Source: an uncultured virus (IMG/VR IMGVR_UViG_3300032167_000098)
Lineage: Duplodnaviria; Heunggongvirae; Uroviricota; Caudoviricetes
Virus record (IMG/VR): IMGVR_UViG_3300032167_000098
Coordinates: 1-64,000 of that record
Length of the DNA: 64,000 nucleotides
Reading direction: 5' to 3' (one strand)
A program made the position numbers and the translations under genes. Below are positions 41,648 to 54,664 of this stretch, piece after piece; the stretch's first letter is position 1; every line of letters starts with the position of its first letter. The notes beneath the pieces were generated by a model. The model saw only the letters and a program-made list of their open reading frames with translations, searched no databases and was not told where the DNA came from.

Positions 41648-42097
41648 AAGTTACGTCTTTCTCAATTTAAACACAATCAAATCATCTCAAGGCTACCACT
41701 CCGCATCTACTCGCAAGCTCTAAATAAGATACTCACTTGCTCCTAGCTCGAAAGCTTTTCCTACCTCCTCGAAGTTGGGCTGATATTTCGCCTACAGACC
41801 AGTTCTCTTAAGAGTTTACAACCGTGTCTCCCTTCGGTGAGCTCTTTCTTTCTCATCAATTCGGACTCTCGATCTCTGACCTTCGCTTACTATATAAACC
41901 TCGAGATGATTAACCACGGAACTTTTCACGCCTGCTCCTGCATCGTAGGTAGCATCCGTTTCAATTCTATAAACCCCAGCGTAGGGTGGCAATATATTTT
42001 GACATGCCGTACTCGTGCTACGCACATACCAGTGAATTTACGGTATATATCATTTCAACCGAAGGCTTCACCCTGCTAACTTAATGGGACTAATCCC

Positions 42098-42171
42098 TGG
42101 AGCAGATACGGAGAATCGAACTCCGACGATGAGATTGGAAATCTCAGGTTCTACCATTAAACTACATCTGC
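42098..42171 (-). tRNA. tRNA-Gly(UCC)
   Basis: Cloverleaf; UGAGA-UUUCCAA-UCUCA; U73 and CCA encoded. Confidence 0.9.
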
Positions 42172-42311
42172 ATATTGAATCTGAAGAAAGAATATAAGTT
42201 ATTCCTAATCAACACAACGACTATTAAAACGCACGTGCTCACGATGTATTATATAGGTTTCTCAAAGCCACTCTGCAGAGTGATATTTTTCGTCTCTCAA
42301 TCTTCAGATTT

Positions 42312-42439
42312 TGGTGCACTCTACAAGATTCGAACTTGTCTAAACTGTCTGTAGCTTCTTCTACATATCAGCTCTTAGTTTCAGGCATCAAGAAGTATTG
42401 CCTTAGACCTTAGTGTTCTTCCAAATGAACTAAGAGTGC
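42312..42439 (-). ncRNA. 128-nt tRNA-like RNA with an expanded anticodon domain
   Basis: Acceptor GCACUCU/AGAGUGC, D-arm GUUC/GAAC, T-arm ACAAG-UUCGAAU-CUUGU and ACCA end, with ~75 nt between the D and T arms. Confidence 0.75.
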
Positions 42440-42701
42440 AGAATTGAGCCTCAGGGCGTCCCCATGTTGGCTCAGTGACAGTTGTGGTGTTCAGTCACTT
42501 CGAGTCAGTAGACTGTCAACTACTTAGCACAACTTTTAAGGATGAAGTTTGTGCCTTATCATAACCGCCCGTGTCGTAGGTCGCCCGCCACCTTTTTTGA
42601 ACATGAGGCATGGAAGCTTCCTCAGCTAACAATGAGAGTCTAACTCATGTCTTCACCCCGAAGGGTCGCACTCCACGTTGTGCTATGTTAGCATATTAAG
42701 T

Positions 42702-42841
42702 TGATGCAGGTAAGGATTTCCACCTTACATGAGCAAGTCTAAGTACACGATTTGACATTTTGTGGAATTACACCTCTACGGGTACCGCAATCTTACTATC
42801 TCTACTCTTGTTCAAGCGTCTACGTATTCCGCCACTGCATC
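42702..42841 (-). ncRNA. 140-nt tRNA-Leu-like RNA with an expanded anticodon domain
   Basis: Acceptor GAUGCAG/CUGCAUC, Leu-type D-arm GGCGGAAUACGUAGACGC, T-arm GUAAGG-UGGAAAU-CCUUAC, and an insert closed by UGAACAAG/CUUGCUCA. Confidence 0.7.
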
Positions 42842-42947
42842 TGAGAGCCTAGACCTATATCACTCTCCGGTCCTCTGCAAGCTCTTTGAGGACTTTATCC
42901 GTTTCTGCGCGCATCCGACGAATACACTCGGACATTTCTAAATTGAA

Positions 42948-43068
42948 TTGTAGGCTGTTCATCAAACTCCATTTAACATGTACTGCTGCTCTATCCGATT
43001 TACGCTCAGGAACCTCCTGCATCTCGTCAAATACCGCTTACGATTCGGAAGCTTCGTAGCACCTACAA
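42948..43068 (-). ncRNA. Unknown ncRNA family, copy B
   Basis: UUGUAGG-UGCUACGAAGC...GCAGCAGU...UUAAAUGGAGUUUGAUGAACAG-CCUACAA. Confidence 0.7.
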
Positions 43069-43232
43069 CTCTTGTTGTTTCTTCCCTGTGTCGTAGAGAA
43101 CACACGCCTTTCACTGTAGTAGAAAAAGTAATTACTGCACGCTCGATTCTACCGTACTGACATAACGACCAAAAATGTTATGGAAATTTATTGGATCTCA
43201 GTAACTTGGAACGTCATTACCGAGAAGCGGTC

Positions 43233-43307
43233 TGGCTGAGGTAGCTGGATTTGAACCAGCGATGCAGGAGTCAAAGTCCTGTGTCTTGACCACTTGACTA
43301 TACCCCA
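43233..43307 (-). tRNA. tRNA-Gln(UUG)
   Basis: Cloverleaf with U1-A72; CAGGA-CUUUGAC-UCCUG; CCA encoded. Confidence 0.9.
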
Positions 43308-43326
43308 ATATTTTGCAAGATTATAA

Positions 43327-43502
43327 TGGTTGTGAAGGTTGGACTTGAACCAACTTAATAACGTGCCTACATGTTATCGGCGTTGTGATTTCAATCACTT
43401 CAAGAAGCAGTTTCTTACCTTACTCGAGATATTCTCAGTCTTACTTCTAACGTTGTCAGCGGAACATGCACCCGCCCGACTCGACCCTTCGCCTTCTTCA
43501 CT
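43327..43502 (-). ncRNA. 176-nt RNA with tRNA acceptor/T-arm/CCA and a ~140-nt non-tRNA body
   Basis: GUGAAG/CUUCAC acceptor, GUUGG-UUCAAGU-CCAAC T-arm and ACCA end; body closed by GGCG/CGCC. Confidence 0.65.
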
Positions 43503-43517
43503 ATATCTTTTTAAACT

Positions 43518-43586
43518 AGGATTGTGTGAGAGTCGAACTCACTCCTGCAGTTTCTGAGGCTGCTGTGCGCCGTACACCATCGCTCC
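43518..43586 (-). pseudogene. Degenerate tRNA (CAG anticodon, mispaired acceptor stem)
   Basis: Intact T-arm GUGAG-UUCGACU-CUCAC, short D-arm, loop CUCAGAA, three acceptor-stem mismatches and no CCA. Confidence 0.5.
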
Positions 43587-43656
43587 ATATAGATTGTACT
43601 TTCTTACTTACGTAGAAGAAACTTTTAAGAAGACGGATACATACTAAAAGCTTAAT

Positions 43657-44808
43657 ATGGAGTTGGCAGTCTTTCCCACTGACTGCCTGAGACTCTATCT
43701 CTCATCACAGTCCTCTGTCACATTACTGTGCTCTTCGGCTTTTACCTCCACTAACGGAGGCGAGAGTCTCCCTGACATCCTTAGTACTTGCACAATCTGG
43801 CTTCACTTAATAGGAACATCGCTACGTTTCAGGTATAAGTACCAACAGCTTCGCCTCCCTCCGCAGGGACTTCCTCTGGACTCAGACCAGACTTTCCACC
43901 ATTGAATACATACGATGCTATTCCATGTCGCATCCTATTTAAGTATATCGGAGTTTCACCGACACCTTACGAGAATCCGAACCCACCAATTCTCTGAGTA
44001 CTACTGGCTCGCTTTAGTAATGCGATGCCTGACTGTTCCGAAGTTCGTCCGCAACTGTCTGAGTTTAACGGGCTATTTCTCCTTACTGAATCCTGAGACT
44101 CGGATTGATTACCGAGGAGAGATTCAACGGCTCTTTTTGTGCCGAAGTCTCTATTAACCTTCGGCTAAATTCCTCTCTTCGAAAATCTCTGCGCAGATAA
44201 GAGGAATACTTTAGGATGTAGTGGCAACCTCACTTTACTATAATCCACTACGTTACTCGAAGTACCTCTCCGAATTTTTCGGCTTTCGCTAATCCAGTCT
44301 TACAACCTCGTACCTATTTACGGAGATACGCTGACCGAAGGTTTTAGTTAGAATAAGTGTAGCACCAACCTCATTTGTGAAACTTGCTACCTACGGAGAT
44401 ACTTTTGCGCATTTCACGCATCCATCACCGTTCTTAGATCACTATCGTGTCTAAAGGTTGTTGATCTTAACTGGTACCTGAACCCACGAGTACCTTGGCG
44501 TTGTTGCACGCGTGTCCATCATTCAAGATATAACGGGCGACGTCCTTCCCGATCACGTATCATCGCTTTGATCAGAAGCGACTTCGAGATCAGCACCACT
44601 ATTCATCTGAGGTAGATTTAATTCATCAACCACTTATCTGACTCTACGACCTTGTACTTCGGTGGTCATGCACCTTCAGATCTCACTTTATTTCGAGCCT
44701 GTGAGCAGGACTTGGTGTGGAGAGCCTTTCTGTAGATACTTTCATGTGACTTTTTCACCTTTAGAGCGTACTCGCGAATACGACATCTTCAAGCTTCTCT
44801 AACTCCAC
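43657..44808 (-). ncRNA. Candidate giant (~1.15 kb) structured non-coding RNA
   Basis: No - strand ORF in the track. The ends pair (GUGGAGUU/AACUCCAU), there are many nested long-range helices, and it starts right after the tRNA-Leu CCA. Confidence 0.65.
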
Positions 44809-44892
44809 TGGTGCACCTGGAGAGACTTGAACTCTCACCCATCTTGGACTGGACCCTAAAACCAGCGCGTCTGCCATTTCCGCCACAGATGC
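44809..44892 (-). tRNA. tRNA-Leu(UAG)
   Basis: Class II cloverleaf with a long variable arm; loop UUUAGGG; A73 and CCA encoded. Confidence 0.88.
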
Positions 44893-44899
44893 ATGTATT

Positions 44900-45008
44900 A
44901 TATCAGGCTGTTCATCCCACTCCATTTACCACTGCTGCTGCGTCCATTTACTCCGTTCCAGAAAGCTATTAAGGCGATCTGCGGTATAGGCTTCGTGGCA
45001 CCTGATAT
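44900..45008 (-). ncRNA. Unknown ncRNA family, copy A
   Basis: AUAUCAGG-UGCCACGAAGC...GCAGCAGUGGUAAAUGGAGUGGGAUGAACAG-CCUGAUAU. Confidence 0.7.
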
Positions 45009-45018
45009 ATTTGATTTT

Positions 45019-45086
45019 TACAAGTATATTATAAGCCCTACTGATTATGTCAGTATTATATATTTATTAAATTTTTATAAATTTTA
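45019..45086 (-). promoter_or_regulatory. 68-bp class E promoter element, copy 2 (heads the RNA array)
   Basis: Near-identical to 14828-14895. Confidence 0.75.
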
Positions 45087-45124
45087 GAGATAAATACTAA
45101 TAAAATCTGTATCTTTCTCAATTA

Positions 45125-45313
45125 TTAAAGGTCCAACGCAGATCTGATTGATGTCAATTGATTCTCAAATTCTTTCTGATACTTATCTCGTAAACAATTA
45201 AGTTCAGAAATGTACTGTGATCTTAATTCTTTGAATATGTCCATGGAATGTTTAAGTTCAACTGCTTTTTGAATCACTTCCGAATCGCATCCGATGATCT
45301 TGTATTCTGCCAC
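45125..45313 (-). CDS. Small hypothetical protein
   Basis: GTG start with an AGGAG RBS. Confidence 0.55.
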   Translation of the reverse strand: MAEYKIIGCDSEVIQKAVELKHSMDIFKELRSQYISELNCLRDKYQKEFENQLTSIRSALDL

Positions 45314-45332
45314 TTGAGTCTGTCTCCTACTG

Positions 45333-45713
45333 TTAATATCTTTGAATCAGTTCAAATCCGTGTTTATTGCAGACATCTTCGACTGCTGCTTTCTGACATA
45401 ACGCAATCGTTCTGAGATCTGAAGCTACTACGATTCCTTTAGCATCTAGTAATATATAACGATCTCGAGTGCTATTGTACAGCACGATATACTTAGAAAT
45501 CAAAGTAGAATTTCTGTAAGTCCGCATTGAAAAGAGACCTTTTTCAATTTTACTCTGGTCTGCCGGATCAAAATCAAGTACTGGAAATTTCTGATGTACT
45601 AAGATGCACTTTCCTTGTGCCGGAACTTCTTTCTGTAGATTTACAGAAGAGCCCATTAGTAACATGTATCGATCAGATCCTGTATCTTTTGCAAGTACTC
45701 TTTCGGGTGTCAT
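45333..45713 (-). CDS. Hypothetical protein
   Basis: 126 aa; AGGAG RBS. Confidence 0.6.
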   Translation of the reverse strand: MTPERVLAKDTGSDRYMLLMGSSVNLQKEVPAQGKCILVHQKFPVLDFDPADQSKIEKGLFSMRTYRNSTLISKYIVLYNSTRDRYILLDAKGIVVASDLRTIALCQKAAVEDVCNKHGFELIQRY

Positions 45714-45725
45714 AGTGTGTATCTC

Positions 45726-45905
45726 CTATATTCCTAATATATTGGCGAGTATCTGTTCTTTTCCATATACGCCATTATTGATAAGCTCATGTTTGAATCG
45801 TTCGTAGTCCTGCCAAGTTGCTTTTCGATGCTGTCGTTTCAGCTGTTCTTTGTACTTCTGAGCACGAGCTAATATTTCATCGGCAATAGTAGAATCTGAT
45901 AACAT
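45726..45905 (-). CDS. 59-aa hypothetical protein not in the ORF track
   Basis: Hand translation MLSDSTIADEILARAQKYKEQL...NILGI*; AGGAGG RBS. Confidence 0.55.
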   Translation of the reverse strand: MLSDSTIADEILARAQKYKEQLKRQHRKATWQDYERFKHELINNGVYGKEQILANILGI

Positions 45906-45908
45906 CTC

Positions 45909-47726
45909 TCATCCTCCTATTTCTATCATTTTAGCTTCAAGCTGCTCAAGTGTTGGAACTTTAACACCGGCAAATATCATCTGAATATCCTTCATATTCA
46001 ATAACGATTCGAAGACTTTGTCGATATTTATATCGTCAAGATGATCAAACGAGTCGTCTATCATAACAAGTTTCAGAGGACACTCGGCAAACTTGATGAT
46101 AGAAATGAGGAGAGCAAGATTAAACAAGCATTTCTCTCCAGAAGATAACATATCATAAGGGACATAACCTAAAGGGAAAGTTAGACCGTAAGAGAAACTA
46201 TTCGATTTACCTTCTGTAACAAACGTGATTGATACATCGTCACCGAAGAATTTTTGAATGATAGGTTTCATGTCGTTAATGAGTACGTCAAATGGATTTG
46301 TACCTGAATTGTGACTCTGTAATCCATTGACACTTGTGAGTTTGTCCCACACCTTATATGCATCTAACAGATTTGAAACCTCAAACTTCTGTTTGGTCAT
46401 TGTATCAATAAGATTTGTATACTGTTCATTTGCAATGACTTTCGCCTGCAGGTCAGACAGCTCAGCGAGTCTATTATTCCAGTAACTTACATCGATATCA
46501 AGATCTGTCAATCCTTCCGGCAGTTTCAGAAGAGTAGCTTTGAGTGCATCACGTCTTTCATATCTGTGTTTGATATCAAGCTGTTTAGCTGATGCTTCTT
46601 GAAACTTCGACGCGATGTCACGTCGAGATGTTTCAAAGTTGTTTAGATCTGAACTGCATTTATCGAATTCATCCTGCTTAGCTTTCAGCTGCATTCTAGT
46701 GTCTTCAATCATGTTACGAACGGATTCACACTCAGTCTTGGTATACGGGCAAACTCCAGAACTGTTAGCAACATCCGTCAACTTCAAAATATCAGCGCTA
46801 AGCTGATTATATTTAGTACGAAGCGGTTCAATTTCAGCGTCTATTTGTTTAGCTTGCACTGCAAGATCAGCTCGGGCAGACTCTAGCTCTACGTAGTACG
46901 GATCAAGTTCTGCAGTTTCGACAGTACCTGCATACTTACAGAGCTCTTCATTTACTTTAGCATTTGCAGACACTATTGCATTGTATTCAACTGCAACTTT
47001 CTGCTTAACACGAGCGTCTGTAATATCTTGTGCAAGTTGTAACTTATCTACACCGGCTGCGTCTTCATAGTAAATGAGAGACTGAACGGTGGATGTAATT
47101 CTCTGAAGTTCTGATTTTGTTACCGATGTGAGCATTTTGAATCGTTCGTTTGCACTACGGATTTCGTCTACACCTGATAGATTGAATCCGTTGATTGCAT
47201 CTATAGTTTCCGCTATATCCTTGTCCGATACTGTGATATTGTTTTCTTCGAGACACTGACGTAATTCTGTTTCCCAATCTGTATGGAACTCCGCTGACGG
47301 TAGGAAGTTAATGAACCAGTCTTTCAGCTTGTTTGCAGTCATACCGACAAACTCAGTGAAGTTGAATATCGGCAACTCTATGGATCTCAAAATGACTTCA
47401 ATATTGTATGAACCAGGCTGCACTGATATCGAAGGAAGAATGTTTGTTCCGGAACGTATCCATTCACGTGTGACTGTTACTTCAGTTCCGTTGTCATCCA
47501 GAAGAAGCGTGATGCTCAAGAGACGCGACGACGCATGTGCAAAGATAGCAGATTTATTCTTATCAGTTCCCGGAATGTATCCAAGAAGTGCAAGCTGAAT
47601 GGCTTGAAGCACTGTTGATTTGCCAGCACCATTCTGTCCATGCAGATAGTTGAAGTTCTGATCAAACTTATATGTCTTTCTGGCTACATTGTGCAGACCT
47701 TCAATTGTTACTGATTTGATATACAT
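45909..47726 (-). CDS. Rad50/SbcC-like SMC ATPase
   Basis: Walker A GQNGAGKST, coiled coil with a central CPY...C hook, signature LSSGE and Walker B VMIDD. Confidence 0.88.
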   Translation of the reverse strand: MYIKSVTIEGLHNVARKTYKFDQNFNYLHGQNGAGKSTVLQAIQLALLGYIPGTDKNKSAIFAHASSRLLSITLLLDDNGTEVTVTREWIRSGTNILPSISVQPGSYNIEVILRSIELPIFNFTEFVGMTANKLKDWFINFLPSAEFHTDWETELRQCLEENNITVSDKDIAETIDAINGFNLSGVDEIRSANERFKMLTSVTKSELQRITSTVQSLIYYEDAAGVDKLQLAQDITDARVKQKVAVEYNAIVSANAKVNEELCKYAGTVETAELDPYYVELESARADLAVQAKQIDAEIEPLRTKYNQLSADILKLTDVANSSGVCPYTKTECESVRNMIEDTRMQLKAKQDEFDKCSSDLNNFETSRRDIASKFQEASAKQLDIKHRYERRDALKATLLKLPEGLTDLDIDVSYWNNRLAELSDLQAKVIANEQYTNLIDTMTKQKFEVSNLLDAYKVWDKLTSVNGLQSHNSGTNPFDVLINDMKPIIQKFFGDDVSITFVTEGKSNSFSYGLTFPLGYVPYDMLSSGEKCLFNLALLISIIKFAECPLKLVMIDDSFDHLDDINIDKVFESLLNMKDIQMIFAGVKVPTLEQLEAKMIEIGG

Positions 47727-54495: not shown

Positions 54496-54524
54496 CTCTG
54501 TGATCTCCTTGTTTTGATTTATTC

Positions 54525-54592
54525 TACAAGTATATTATAAGTCCATATGATTATATCAGTATTATATATTTATTAAATTTTTATAAATTTTA
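54525..54592 (-). promoter_or_regulatory. 68-bp class E promoter element, copy 3
   Basis: Near-identical to 14828-14895 and 45019-45086. Confidence 0.75.
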
Positions 54593-54664
54593 GAAATCAA
54601 AACATAGAAAAAGCGTCTGATGCAAGAACATCAAACGCTCGAAAGAGAGGTATAATAATGAGAA

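What the first reader, a model, noticed from the sequence alone, without database searches (positions are those of the whole stretch)
43657..44808. Candidate ~1.15-kb giant structured RNA starting at the base after the tRNA-Leu CCA
Seen: the extreme ends pair (GUGGAGUU...AACUCCAU). Nested long-range helices include UCUAAAGGU/ACCUUUAGA (44757-44765 with 44450-44458), AACCUUCGG/CCGAAGGUU (44335-44343 with 44156-44164), GAGAUC/GAUCUC, GUAGUGG/CCACUAC, UUCCUCU/AGAGGAA and a 3' GGCAGUC/GACUGCC hairpin. There is no sense-strand ORF, and GC is visibly higher than in ordinary intergenic DNA. Knowledge: GOLLD and ROOL are large ornate phage RNAs found beside tRNA clusters and are usually shorter than this. 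Inference: an unusually long member of those classes or a new class. I cannot assign it by eye.
Basis: partly seen in the sequence, partly recalled or inferred. Interest (0 to 1): 0.88.

Follow-up and report, generated by a model that had tools for sequence, protein, structure and literature searches.

The report
Orphan large RNA beside phage tRNA-Leu
A 1.15-kb gene-free stretch that follows a tRNA gene in a ruminant-gut phage is probably a new large non-coding RNA of the kind that related phages carry at this spot, but its folded structure could not be proven here.

Summary
The stretch is real. On the minus strand, 43657-44808 starts at the base after the encoded CCA of tRNA-Leu(UAG).

It matches no Rfam family. 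That includes ROOL, GOLLD, HDV-like ribozymes, introns and RNase P, even at E<=10.

No homologue turned up in GenBank phages, in 170 fetched loci, in 41 whole related IMG/VR phage records, or in pattern scans of three collections. Near-identical variants appear only in contigs of ruminant sequencing runs.

Proof of structure is weak:
- The MFE z-score is -2.9. Real RNAs give -2.9 (GOLLD) and -3.6 (family B); coding controls give -0.8 to -2.0.
- Of the natural substitutions that fall in confident pairs, 6 of 7 keep pairing, against a null of 0.55. The plus strand does nearly as well (5 of 7).

Context is the strongest support. Related phages carry ROOL, GOLLD, tmRNA, or an unnamed ~975-nt RNA in the same tRNA array. 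That unnamed RNA is supported by covariation and also begins right after a tRNA-Leu CCA.

Verdict: probably a new, orphan class of tRNA-array phage RNA (about 0.5). It is not a GOLLD or ROOL member, and it is unproven.

The parts
44893..44931 (-). Promoter-like repeat directly upstream of tRNA-Leu. RNA sense: ...GATGAACAGCCT GA TATAATACAT, an extended -10 (TGnTATAAT) that abuts the tRNA start.
   Evidence: TATAATACAT occurs exactly 3 times in the 64-kb window, all on the minus strand and all in the tRNA array (40751, 42244, 44893). A 27-nt repeat, 89% identical, lies at 42952-42978. The AGGCTGTTCATC part is exact at 42952 and 44905. Promoter function is inferred, not shown.
44809..44892 (-). 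tRNA-Leu(UAG) with encoded CCA
   Evidence: ARAGORN. Rfam tRNA, 46.3 bits.
43657..44808 (-). The candidate: a 1152-nt ORF-free, GC-enriched stretch read as one large non-coding RNA, closed by an 8-bp helix between its two ends.
   Evidence: Sequence. Fold with MFE -350.4 kcal/mol. Pair probabilities. No ORF. No Rfam family.
44358..44701 (-). 5' part that is nearly unchanged in contigs of other sequencing runs
   Evidence: Run X13: 1 change in 136 nt and 4 in 237 nt. Run X17: 4 in 273 nt (44182-44454). Run X10: 1 and 2 changes in 151 nt each. A coding piece of the neighbouring gene in X13 differs at 23 of 211 nt.
44255..44275 (-). 8-bp hairpin in which four substitutions of run X13 all keep pairing on the minus-strand RNA
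   Evidence: Changes at 44256, 44257, 44260 and 44275, mapped on the fold. On the plus strand the same helix has 6 of 8 pairs both before and after the changes (my reading of the sequence).
43744..43761 (-). Hairpin (pair probability about 0.99) whose tip is replaced in run X13: 10 nt are swapped for 45 other letters
   Evidence: Joint 43747/43758, table 5. Hairpin. A length change at a hairpin tip is typical of structured RNA. It also breaks the plus-strand ORF 43657-43905.
43587..43656 (-). 70-nt spacer between the closing helix and the next tRNA-like element. It may belong to the RNA or be a trailer.
   Evidence: Sequence. No terminator-like site found.
43518..43586 (-). Degenerate tRNA-like element with a perfect T arm and a poor acceptor stem. 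A possible processing signal at the 3' side.
   Evidence: Rfam tRNA 29.6 bits, against a gathering score of 29. Not called by ARAGORN. My reading.
43233..43307 (-). tRNA-Gln(UUG), the next standard tRNA of the same array

Best explanation
The stretch is a gene for a large non-coding RNA of about 1.15-1.2 kb, of a class that no library holds.

How it is made. It is transcribed on the minus strand together with tRNA-Leu(UAG), from the promoter-like motif that abuts the tRNA. The machinery that trims tRNA ends cuts it out of the tRNA precursor. The cut that makes the tRNA-Leu 3' end creates its 5' end. Its 3' end lies at the closing helix (43657) or at the tRNA-like element 70 nt further on. This is tRNA punctuation.

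What it looks like. The released RNA folds into several domains closed by a helix between its ends. The 5' part is conserved and the 3' hairpins are more variable.

What it does. It serves the phage in the way that ROOL and GOLLD, the ornate tRNA-island RNAs, are thought to. Their own function is still unknown; they form RNA-only cages.

Shown: position, strand context, absence of coding, absence of any known family, equivalent RNAs in relatives, and near-identity of the 5' part in other samples.
Inferred: transcription, processing, the fold and the function.
For: 1. Non-coding in a tightly packed phage. There is no sense ORF under code 11, TGA=W, TAG=Q or TAA=Q. The plus-strand ORFs match nothing in Pfam or PHROGs. 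3 of 3 of them are absent from the 15-billion-protein collection. 6457 ORF translations from related loci give no credible tblastn match, so there is no sign of a decayed gene.

2. Placement. It has the same strand as all 6 tRNAs and all long ORFs. It starts at the base after the tRNA-Leu CCA. It lies downstream of a promoter-like motif repeated three times in the array.

3. Related phages hold large RNAs in the same array downstream of the SbcC-like gene.
- ROOL in 1 of 41 records, between tRNA-Ser and tRNA-Gln.
- GOLLD in 1 of 41 records, in a tRNA array elsewhere in that genome.
- tmRNA in 2 of the 14 related loci scanned at gathering threshold (both hits).
- An unnamed ~975-nt RNA in 9 loci. 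It runs from the base after a tRNA-Leu(taa) CCA to the base before tRNA-Glu. It has 37 of 187 pairs with compensatory double changes, against 3-8 in slid controls and 0 of 500 shuffles reaching 37.

4. Conservation. In run X13 the 5' part differs at 1/136 and 4/237 positions, while a piece of the adjacent coding gene differs at 23/211. Of the 15 listed coding changes, 10 fall on third codon positions (frame). The 3' parts differ by 7-8% with indels. One indel replaces the tip of a predicted hairpin.

5. Of the X13 substitutions that fall in pairs with probability >=0.5, 6 of 7 keep pairing.

6. The full-length z of -2.9 lies in the range of real large RNAs folded the same way: GOLLD -2.9, family B -3.6, tmRNA -1.1, ROOL -7.4.

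7. GC is raised over the stretch.
Against: - No homologue beyond near-identical strains was found, so there is no covariation test.
- The pair-keeping count is not significant. It is 6 of 7 against a null of 0.55, roughly p = 0.1 by my arithmetic. The plus-strand fold does nearly as well, at 5 of 7, and includes the only true double compensatory change (44216 with 44253).
- Thermodynamic support is weak. z is the same on both strands. The conserved 5' 460 nt give only -0.7. The 150-nt window profile is flat. Coding controls reach -2.0.
- The X13 pieces are short contigs and may come from more than one strain, so the contrast between RNA and coding divergence is not secure.
- Presence in contigs of RNA libraries does not show transcription. 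A coding piece has similar depth, and the runs were chosen for holding this stretch.
- The neighbouring 1-kb gap contains degenerate and atypical tRNA-like elements and a decayed copy of the promoter plus tRNA-Leu start. This array therefore does accumulate remnants.
Confidence: 0.5

Rival explanations
1. Transcribed but functionless filler. The stretch is a spacer of the tRNA array, built from decayed tRNAs, duplications or acquired DNA. It is carried along and degraded after tRNA processing.
For: It is an orphan: no homologue in 41 related records or 170 loci. z-scores are close to those of coding controls. The adjoining gap holds tRNA-like remnants and a decayed copy of the promoter plus tRNA-Leu 5' part. 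The listed helices are of a length expected by chance in 1.15 kb (my arithmetic).
Against: The Rfam tRNA model finds no tRNA remnant inside 43657-44808 even at E<=10. Phage genomes of this group are densely coding. The 5' part is 98-99% identical in contigs of other studies, where a coding piece is 89% identical. GC is raised rather than lowered as in the true spacer at 45000-45300. Relatives fill this position with proven structured RNAs.
Confidence: 0.22
2. Not one giant RNA but several shorter ones, such as small RNAs, tRNA-like decoys and processing signals, lying head to tail. The end-to-end helix would then be a coincidence.
For: The closing helix is not statistically secure. The 5' end has a second, local partner, CUCCAC at RNA positions 87-92 (my reading). 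The 5' part and the 3' part differ in conservation and in z-score, -0.7 against -2.8. A short motif pair is repeated at 73-nt spacing (GTATCTCCGTA at 44319 and 44392). Three GAGGTTG lie within 150 nt.
Against: No internal promoter-like repeat, terminator, tRNA or ribozyme match divides the stretch. The long-range helix AACCUUCGG/CCGAAGGUU has a pair probability of about 0.99. The equivalent ~975-nt RNA of relatives is closed by a long-range helix too, although that helix never varies.
Confidence: 0.15
3. A DNA-level element such as an origin, a packaging site or a recombination hotspot, rather than an RNA gene.
For: It is a long ORF-free block with repeats.
Against: Cumulative GC skew runs straight through it, with no turn. 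It is GC-rich rather than AT-rich. There is no tandem repeat or iteron array. It sits inside a tRNA operon on the transcribed strand.
Confidence: 0.05
4. A very diverged GOLLD or ROOL, or a diverged member of the relatives' ~975-nt family, beyond the reach of the models.
For: Same habitat, same phage group and same kind of place. The best hit of the family-B core model in 16 kb of search space falls in the candidate on the right strand (44122-44258), but at 4.4 bits and E 1.9.
Against: ROOL: 5 candidates scored, none at E<=10. GOLLD: 6 scored, none. Family B: the profile HMM finds nothing, model R1 gives 4.4 bits and model R3 gives 7 bits at E 0.22. At 1152 nt it is twice the length of ROOL.
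Confidence: 0.04
5. Protein-coding, either as small plus-strand ORFs (82, 80 and 46 aa) or through an unusual genetic code.
For: The plus strand has ORFs of 82 and 80 aa, which join into 166 aa if TGA is read through.
Against: No Pfam or PHROGs match. None of the three was called by any gene caller in the protein collection. Run X13 carries single-base indels and a 10-to-45-nt replacement inside the 82-aa ORF. Every long gene of the window is on the other strand and reads through in the standard code.
Confidence: 0.02

Closest known systems
ROOL RNA (Rfam RF03087)
   Same: A large non-coding RNA of rumen origin, encoded by phages and prophages, often beside tRNAs (passages of PMC5737381; passages of bioRxiv 10.1101/2024.12.08.627333). 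A relative of this very phage group has a full-length ROOL between two tRNAs, downstream of the same SbcC-like gene.
   Different: No match to the ROOL model at E<=10. Twice the length (1152 against about 580 nt). No covariation-supported structure. z is -2.9 against -7.4 for the relative's ROOL.
GOLLD RNA (Rfam RF02032)
   Same: A phage RNA of 800 nt or more in tRNA islands, with one conserved and one variable half. One related record has a GOLLD inside a tRNA array. Its z-score is similar, at -2.9.
   Different: No match to the GOLLD model at E<=10. In GOLLD the 3' half is the conserved one. Here the few data point to the 5' part.
Unnamed ~975-nt RNA of related phages ('family B', e.g. L030:17943-18916)
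   Same: About 1 kb and ORF-free. It begins at the base after the CCA of a tRNA-Leu and is followed by another tRNA. It has a long-range closing helix and no Rfam family at gathering threshold.
   Different: Family B has clear covariation and an invariant core found in 27 IMG/VR contigs. The candidate lacks that core and any sequence or model likeness.
Theta (minimal HDV-like) ribozymes 3' of phage tRNAs
   Same: They lie within a few bases of the 3' end of tRNAs, often tRNA-Leu, in gut phages of Bacteroidota, and are proposed to cut the tRNA trailer (passages of PMC10879173). The candidate starts with G directly after a tRNA-Leu.
   Different: No HDV-like Rfam model matches the first 250 nt at E<=10. 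The nearest partner for a P1 helix lies 80 nt away instead of about 25, and no GG follows it (my reading, from the recalled HDV architecture). Only 4.5% of theta-linked tRNAs encode CCA; this tRNA does. The authors' descriptor is in a supplementary figure that I did not see.
Stable RNAs of the phage T4 tRNA cluster (species 1 and 2) - recalled, not from any call
   Same: Non-tRNA stable RNAs encoded inside a phage tRNA cluster and cut out of the same precursor.
   Different: About 140 nt each, against 1150 nt here. No sequence comparison was made.

Membership tests
ROOL (RF03087) | Match to the family covariance model (gathering score 99.1 bits) | tested here: not met
   No hit at E<=10 in cmscan. 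5 candidates scored on the whole record, none at E<=10. Positive control: 285.1 bits in L014.
ROOL (RF03087) | [quoted passage not shown] | tested here: not met
   Length is 1152 nt. The architecture cannot be established without covariation.
ROOL / GOLLD (shared context) | Phage or prophage location next to tRNA genes | tested here: met
   A virus record. The stretch lies between tRNA-Leu and further tRNAs on the same strand.
GOLLD (RF02032) | Match to the family covariance model (gathering score 150 bits) | tested here: not met
   No hit at E<=10. Positive control: 174.5 bits in related record G005.
Family B (unnamed ~975-nt RNA of relatives) | Invariant core (about 155 nt) and covarying 5' domain | tested here: not met
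   Profile HMM: nothing in the window. Core model R1: best 4.4 bits, E 1.9. 5'-domain model R3: best 7.0 bits, E 0.22.
Family B (unnamed ~975-nt RNA of relatives) | Starts directly after a tRNA-Leu CCA inside the tRNA array | tested here: met
   for the window; for L030.
HDV-like / theta ribozyme | Nested double pseudoknot starting at the cleavage site directly 3' of the tRNA | tested here: not met
   No HDV, CPEB3 or drz model hit in 44560-44900 at E<=10. The check by eye is negative but rests on a recalled architecture. The published descriptor was not seen.
tRNA (decayed array) | Match to the tRNA model | tested here: not met
   No tRNA hit inside 43657-44808 at E<=10. With relaxed settings and very long introns, ARAGORN gives one implausible call at 44345-44639.
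Structured RNA in general | Compensatory base changes among homologues | tested here: inconclusive
   Only the variant tables of one call were available. 6 of 7 substitutions in confident pairs keep pairing on the minus strand and 5 of 7 on the plus strand, against a null of 0.55.
Structured RNA in general | A discrete stable transcript | not testable with these tools
   The runs laid were contigs, which cannot show ends, strand or level.

The most novel reading that the evidence does not exclude
Ruminant-gut phages of this group keep a slot in their tRNA operon, often directly after a tRNA-Leu, for interchangeable RNAs of about 0.4 to 1.2 kb. These RNAs are released by tRNA processing. ROOL, GOLLD, the unnamed family B and this orphan 1.15-kb RNA would be alternative occupants of that slot. 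The orphan would then be the first member of a further, fast-evolving class of self-assembling phage RNA, longer than any described so far.
Probability: 0.15. Interest if true: 0.85.

Novelty: new variant of a known kind. Interest (0 to 1): 0.55.

Why it matters
GOLLD and ROOL are the largest bacterial and phage RNAs of unknown function, and were recently shown to build RNA-only cages. If a single phage lineage swaps ROOL, GOLLD, a third covarying ~1-kb RNA and this orphan in and out of one place in its tRNA operon, that lineage becomes a natural comparison set. It could be used to ask what these RNAs do and how they are made, here by being cut out together with tRNAs. The candidate would add a class longer than those known. 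If it is only filler, it shows how easily long inverted repeats in 1 kb of non-coding DNA mimic an ornate RNA.

Tried and rejected
Homologue searches that found nothing but the phage itself:
- blastn of the stretch and tblastn of the neighbouring gene against GenBank phages.
- A single-protein scan of IMG/VR.
- nhmmer of the stretch against 57 loci, then 170 loci totalling 2.31 Mb.
- BLAST against 41 whole related records; outside the own record, only short matches of 34.6 bits or less.
- A single-sequence covariance model of RNA positions 255-416 against the same 41 records; two fragmentary 15-bit matches, which I rejected after seeing the alignments.
- Five DNA patterns in viral contigs (plus the family-B pattern).
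- Two patterns in metagenome contigs and one in genome contigs.
- A protein-profile scan of genome contigs, which returned only generic P-loop ATPases.

Other things tried and dropped:
- TGAGGNTG looked like a motif shared with family B. It proved common, at 0.11 per kb on the sense strand of all loci, because it resembles a ribosome-binding site plus a start codon.
- A shared 9-mer, UCGCCCGUU. About 4 shared 9-mers are expected by chance between two 1-kb RNAs (my arithmetic).
- Tandem repeats: none. Terminator scan: nothing on the minus strand.
- Sequencing runs. Shares under 0.2 in runs that I did not lay (X9, X11, X12, X14-X16, X18-X24) are not used as evidence of habitat or expression. Parts of the 4.5-kb stretch without cover in X13, X17 and X10 are not used either, because the runs were picked for holding this stretch.
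In one search the third coding control was not reached.
- I first recalled RF01998 as GOLLD. It is a group II intron domain model, so says nothing about GOLLD. The right accession was used.
- The supplement of PMC5737381 that describes RAGATH-36 could not be read.
Full report
**What the window is.** The window is the first 64 kb of a 73-kb IMG/VR virus record. Over the 8 kb compared, it is identical to a 144-kb contig judged 96% complete. Nearly all long ORFs are on the minus strand. They include an NAD-dependent ligase, helicases and an SbcC-like ATPase. ARAGORN finds six tRNAs, all on the minus strand, between 39267 and 44892. Rfam adds a borderline seventh at 43518-43586 (29.6 bits).

**The observation.**
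- tRNA-Leu(tag) occupies 44809-44892 on the minus strand, with its CCA encoded. The next base starts GUGGAGUU.
The end-to-end helix, AACCUUCGG/CCGAAGGUU, GUAGUGG/CCACUAC, UUCCUCU/AGAGGAA and the 3' hairpin are in the minimum-energy fold, with pair probabilities near 0.9-0.99. UCUAAAGGU/ACCUUUAGA loses to a local hairpin.
- No sense ORF of 40 aa or more lies inside the stretch. Reassigning TGA, TAG or TAA does not open the region.
- GC is 0.43-0.47, above both the AT-rich spacer upstream (0.27-0.36) and most coding DNA nearby.

**Is it more than chance?** Helices of 8-9 bp are expected by chance in 1.15 kb (my arithmetic: about 2.5 perfect 9-mers).

| Sequence folded | MFE z-score |
|---|---|
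| Candidate, minus strand (full length) | -2.86 |
| Candidate, plus strand (full length) | -2.90 |
| Candidate, 5' 460 nt | -0.7 |
| Candidate, 3' 692 nt | -2.8 |
| Coding controls, equal length | -1.98, -0.81, -1.75 |
| ROOL of a relative | -7.4 |
| Family B of relatives | -3.6 |
| GOLLD of a relative | -2.9 |
| tmRNA of a relative | -1.1 |

The candidate sits in the lower range of real RNAs, just beyond the coding controls. A sliding 150-nt profile is flat. Thermodynamics therefore neither proves nor excludes a fold.

**Known families.**
- cmscan against all 4227 Rfam families finds nothing inside the stretch at the gathering score. It also finds nothing at E<=10 on 7 kb or at E<=10 on the first 250 nt alone.
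- ROOL and GOLLD scored directly on the record give nothing at E<=10.
- There is no tRNA remnant, intron, RNase P, tmRNA or self-cleaving ribozyme.
- The plus-strand ORFs have no Pfam or PHROGs match. Gene callers never called them in the protein collection.
- Translations of 6457 ORFs from related loci find no decayed gene here.

**Relatives and what they carry at this place.**
- The adjacent SbcC-like protein has 790 relatives at E<=1e-3 among the 8000 candidates scored. The nearest is 51% identical and comes from assemblies I could not fetch.
- A profile scan of IMG/VR gave 57 loci, of which about 40 are full-length relatives at 29-40% identity. Most have a tRNA array just downstream of that gene.
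- In these arrays I found a full-length ROOL between tRNA-Ser and tRNA-Gln (285 bits) and tmRNAs in two loci.
- One related record has a GOLLD in a tRNA array elsewhere in its genome, with a tRNA inside it (174.5 bits).
- Nine loci hold an unnamed ~975-nt ORF-free element.
  - In L030 it runs from the base after the CCA of tRNA-Leu(taa) to the base before tRNA-Glu.
  - Its alignment shows 37 of 187 predicted pairs with compensatory double changes. Slid controls give 3-8, and 0 of 500 shuffles reach 37. One caveat: the structure was derived from the same alignment.
  - It matches no Rfam family at gathering score. It has only a sub-threshold RAGATH-36 match (42 bits).
  - Its invariant 26-mer occurs in 27 IMG/VR contigs. 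Ten hold the full element and the rest only a core of roughly 30-490 nt. All those with tRNAs called nearby lie in tRNA arrays.
- Large structured RNAs released between tRNAs are thus a habit of this phage group. The candidate sits where they sit.

**Is the candidate one of them?** No.
- The family-B profile finds nothing in the window.
- The core model R1 gives 4.4 bits at E 1.9, although on the right strand inside the candidate.
- The 5'-domain model R3 gives 7 bits at E 0.22.
- The candidate itself finds nothing in 170 loci or in 41 whole related records.
- A single-sequence model of its core gives two fragmentary 15-bit matches.
- Pattern scans of IMG/VR, JGI metagenomes and GTDB genomes give nothing, or in IMG/VR only the 144-kb contig identical to the window.

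**Natural variants.** An index of public runs lists 24 runs in 21 studies. Five hold half or more of the words, and six are recorded as RNA libraries. I laid four runs on 42000-46500.

| Run and piece | Region covered | Differences |
|---|---|---|
| X8 | several pieces | none (fragmentary) |
| X10 | 44442-44734 | 1 and 2 changes in two 151-nt contigs |
| X17, RNA library, bovine gut | 44182-44454 | 4 changes and 1 gap |
| X13, RNA library, bovine | 44358-44493 | 1 of 136 |
| X13 | 44465-44701 | 4 of 237, plus two insertions |
| X13 | 44086-44343 | 18 of 258, plus 25 gap letters |
| X13 | 43699-43827 | 10 of 119, with indels and a 10-to-45-nt replacement |
| X13, neighbouring coding gene | 46290-46500 | 23 of 211, no gaps |

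Of the 15 listed changes in that coding piece, 10 fall on third codon positions.

- If the X13 pieces come from one strain, the 5' part of the candidate is far better conserved than the protein gene. If they come from two strains, this does not follow. I cannot tell which.
- The replacement falls on the tip of a hairpin with pair probability 0.99.
- Of the 19 listed substitutions in the candidate, 7 fall in pairs with probability >=0.5 on the minus-strand fold. Six of them keep pairing, four within one 8-bp hairpin (44255-44275).
- On the plus-strand fold, 5 of 7 keep pairing, including the one true double change (44216 with 44253). The null for transitions is 0.55 on either strand.
- This is suggestive at best and gives no call on the strand. 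The strand assignment rests on context.
- Contigs cannot show transcription, ends or level, and the runs were selected for this stretch. Expression is therefore not shown.

**How it most likely works.**
- A promoter-like module (GAACAGCCT, 0-2 bases, then TATAATACAT) occurs three times, always on the minus strand within the array (40751, 42244, 44893). It is preceded at 44905-44931 and 42952-42978 by a further 27-nt repeat. The copy at 44893 abuts tRNA-Leu.
- I infer one transcript that starts at or just before tRNA-Leu and runs through the candidate into the tRNA-like elements and tRNA-Gln. No terminator-like site intervenes.
- Maturation of the tRNA-Leu 3' end would free the candidate's 5' end. 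This matches family B, whose borders coincide to the base with tRNA ends.
- A theta (HDV-like) ribozyme, known to sit behind tRNA-Leu in gut phages (passages of PMC10879173), is not detectable here.
- The function is unknown, as it is for ROOL and GOLLD, which form cages of unknown role (passages read).

**Prior description.** Two full-text searches (terms listed there) returned only papers on GOLLD, ROOL, OLE or raiA. I saw no paper describing a phage RNA class of more than 1 kb or family B. These searches cover open-access papers and bioRxiv only. The supplement that describes RAGATH-36 could not be read.

**Verdict.** GOLLD/ROOL membership is rejected. The most likely reading is a new, orphan, large tRNA-array RNA (about 0.5). 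Its rivals are functionless filler (0.22) and several smaller RNAs (0.15). The better-supported novelty found on the way is family B in the relatives.

Noticed in passing
L030:17943-18916 (also L026-L029, L031, L032, L034, L037; 3' half in L017:12519-12992; core in L152-L171 and L174): An unnamed structured RNA of about 975 nt in tRNA arrays of related phages. It runs from the base after a tRNA-Leu(taa) CCA to the base before tRNA-Glu(ttc). 37 of 187 pairs show compensatory double changes. No Rfam family matches at gathering score. Its invariant 26-mer is in 27 IMG/VR contigs, where the distance between flanking tRNAs is 372-1233 nt.
   Followed up: partly
L171:1471-1559, L165:1333-1408, L154:1303-1375; L030:18096-18263: Inside these inter-tRNA elements there are sub-threshold matches to HDV-like ribozyme models: CPEB3 at 33.9 bits against a gathering score of 35, CPEB3 at 18.7 bits, and drz-agam-1 at 23.3 bits. 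There is also one to RAGATH-36 at 42 bits against 70. They may be theta-type self-cleaving ribozymes that help to cut the large RNAs out.
   Followed up: no
window 42312-42439 (-): A 128-nt tRNA-like gene with a perfect 7-bp acceptor stem, a perfect T arm and an encoded CCA, but with an insertion. With introns allowed, ARAGORN calls it anticodon CUA (amber-reading) with a 36-nt intron. It is missed by the standard scans. The window's long genes show no sign of TAG recoding.
   Followed up: partly
window 42172-43232 (-) and 43308-43517 (-): A second ORF-free gap of 1061 nt and a 210-nt gap hold further odd elements: a T-arm-like remnant at 42624-42692, a decayed copy of the promoter repeat plus the tRNA-Leu 5' part at about 42816-42978, and a 177-nt tRNA-like element at 43327-43503 with a T arm, a 6-of-7 acceptor stem and CCA (my reading).
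   Followed up: partly
window 45010-45094 and 54513-54601: An AT-rich intergenic segment of about 88 nt is repeated in direct orientation at 90% identity. One copy lies just upstream of the tRNA-Leu promoter region (BLAST row, coordinates converted by me). It may be a shared regulatory region.
   Followed up: no
L028:18610-19282, L030:19868-20540 (5 loci); L041:15263-16590 / L044:15135-16106: Two more conserved ORF-free elements lie in the tRNA arrays of relatives: one of 673 nt at 94-96% identity, and one of about 940 nt at 94%. The first has no Rfam match at E<=10 in L030. The second has none at gathering score apart from one tRNA inside it.
   Followed up: no
window 44225-44372 (-): Three GAGGUUG lie within 150 nt (3 of the 8 in the whole window), and the 11-mer GUAUCUCCGUA occurs twice, 73 nt apart. 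Two of the GAGGUUG sit at the 3' end of hairpin loops. The meaning is unknown. The wider motif TGAGGNTG is common in these genomes.
   Followed up: partly
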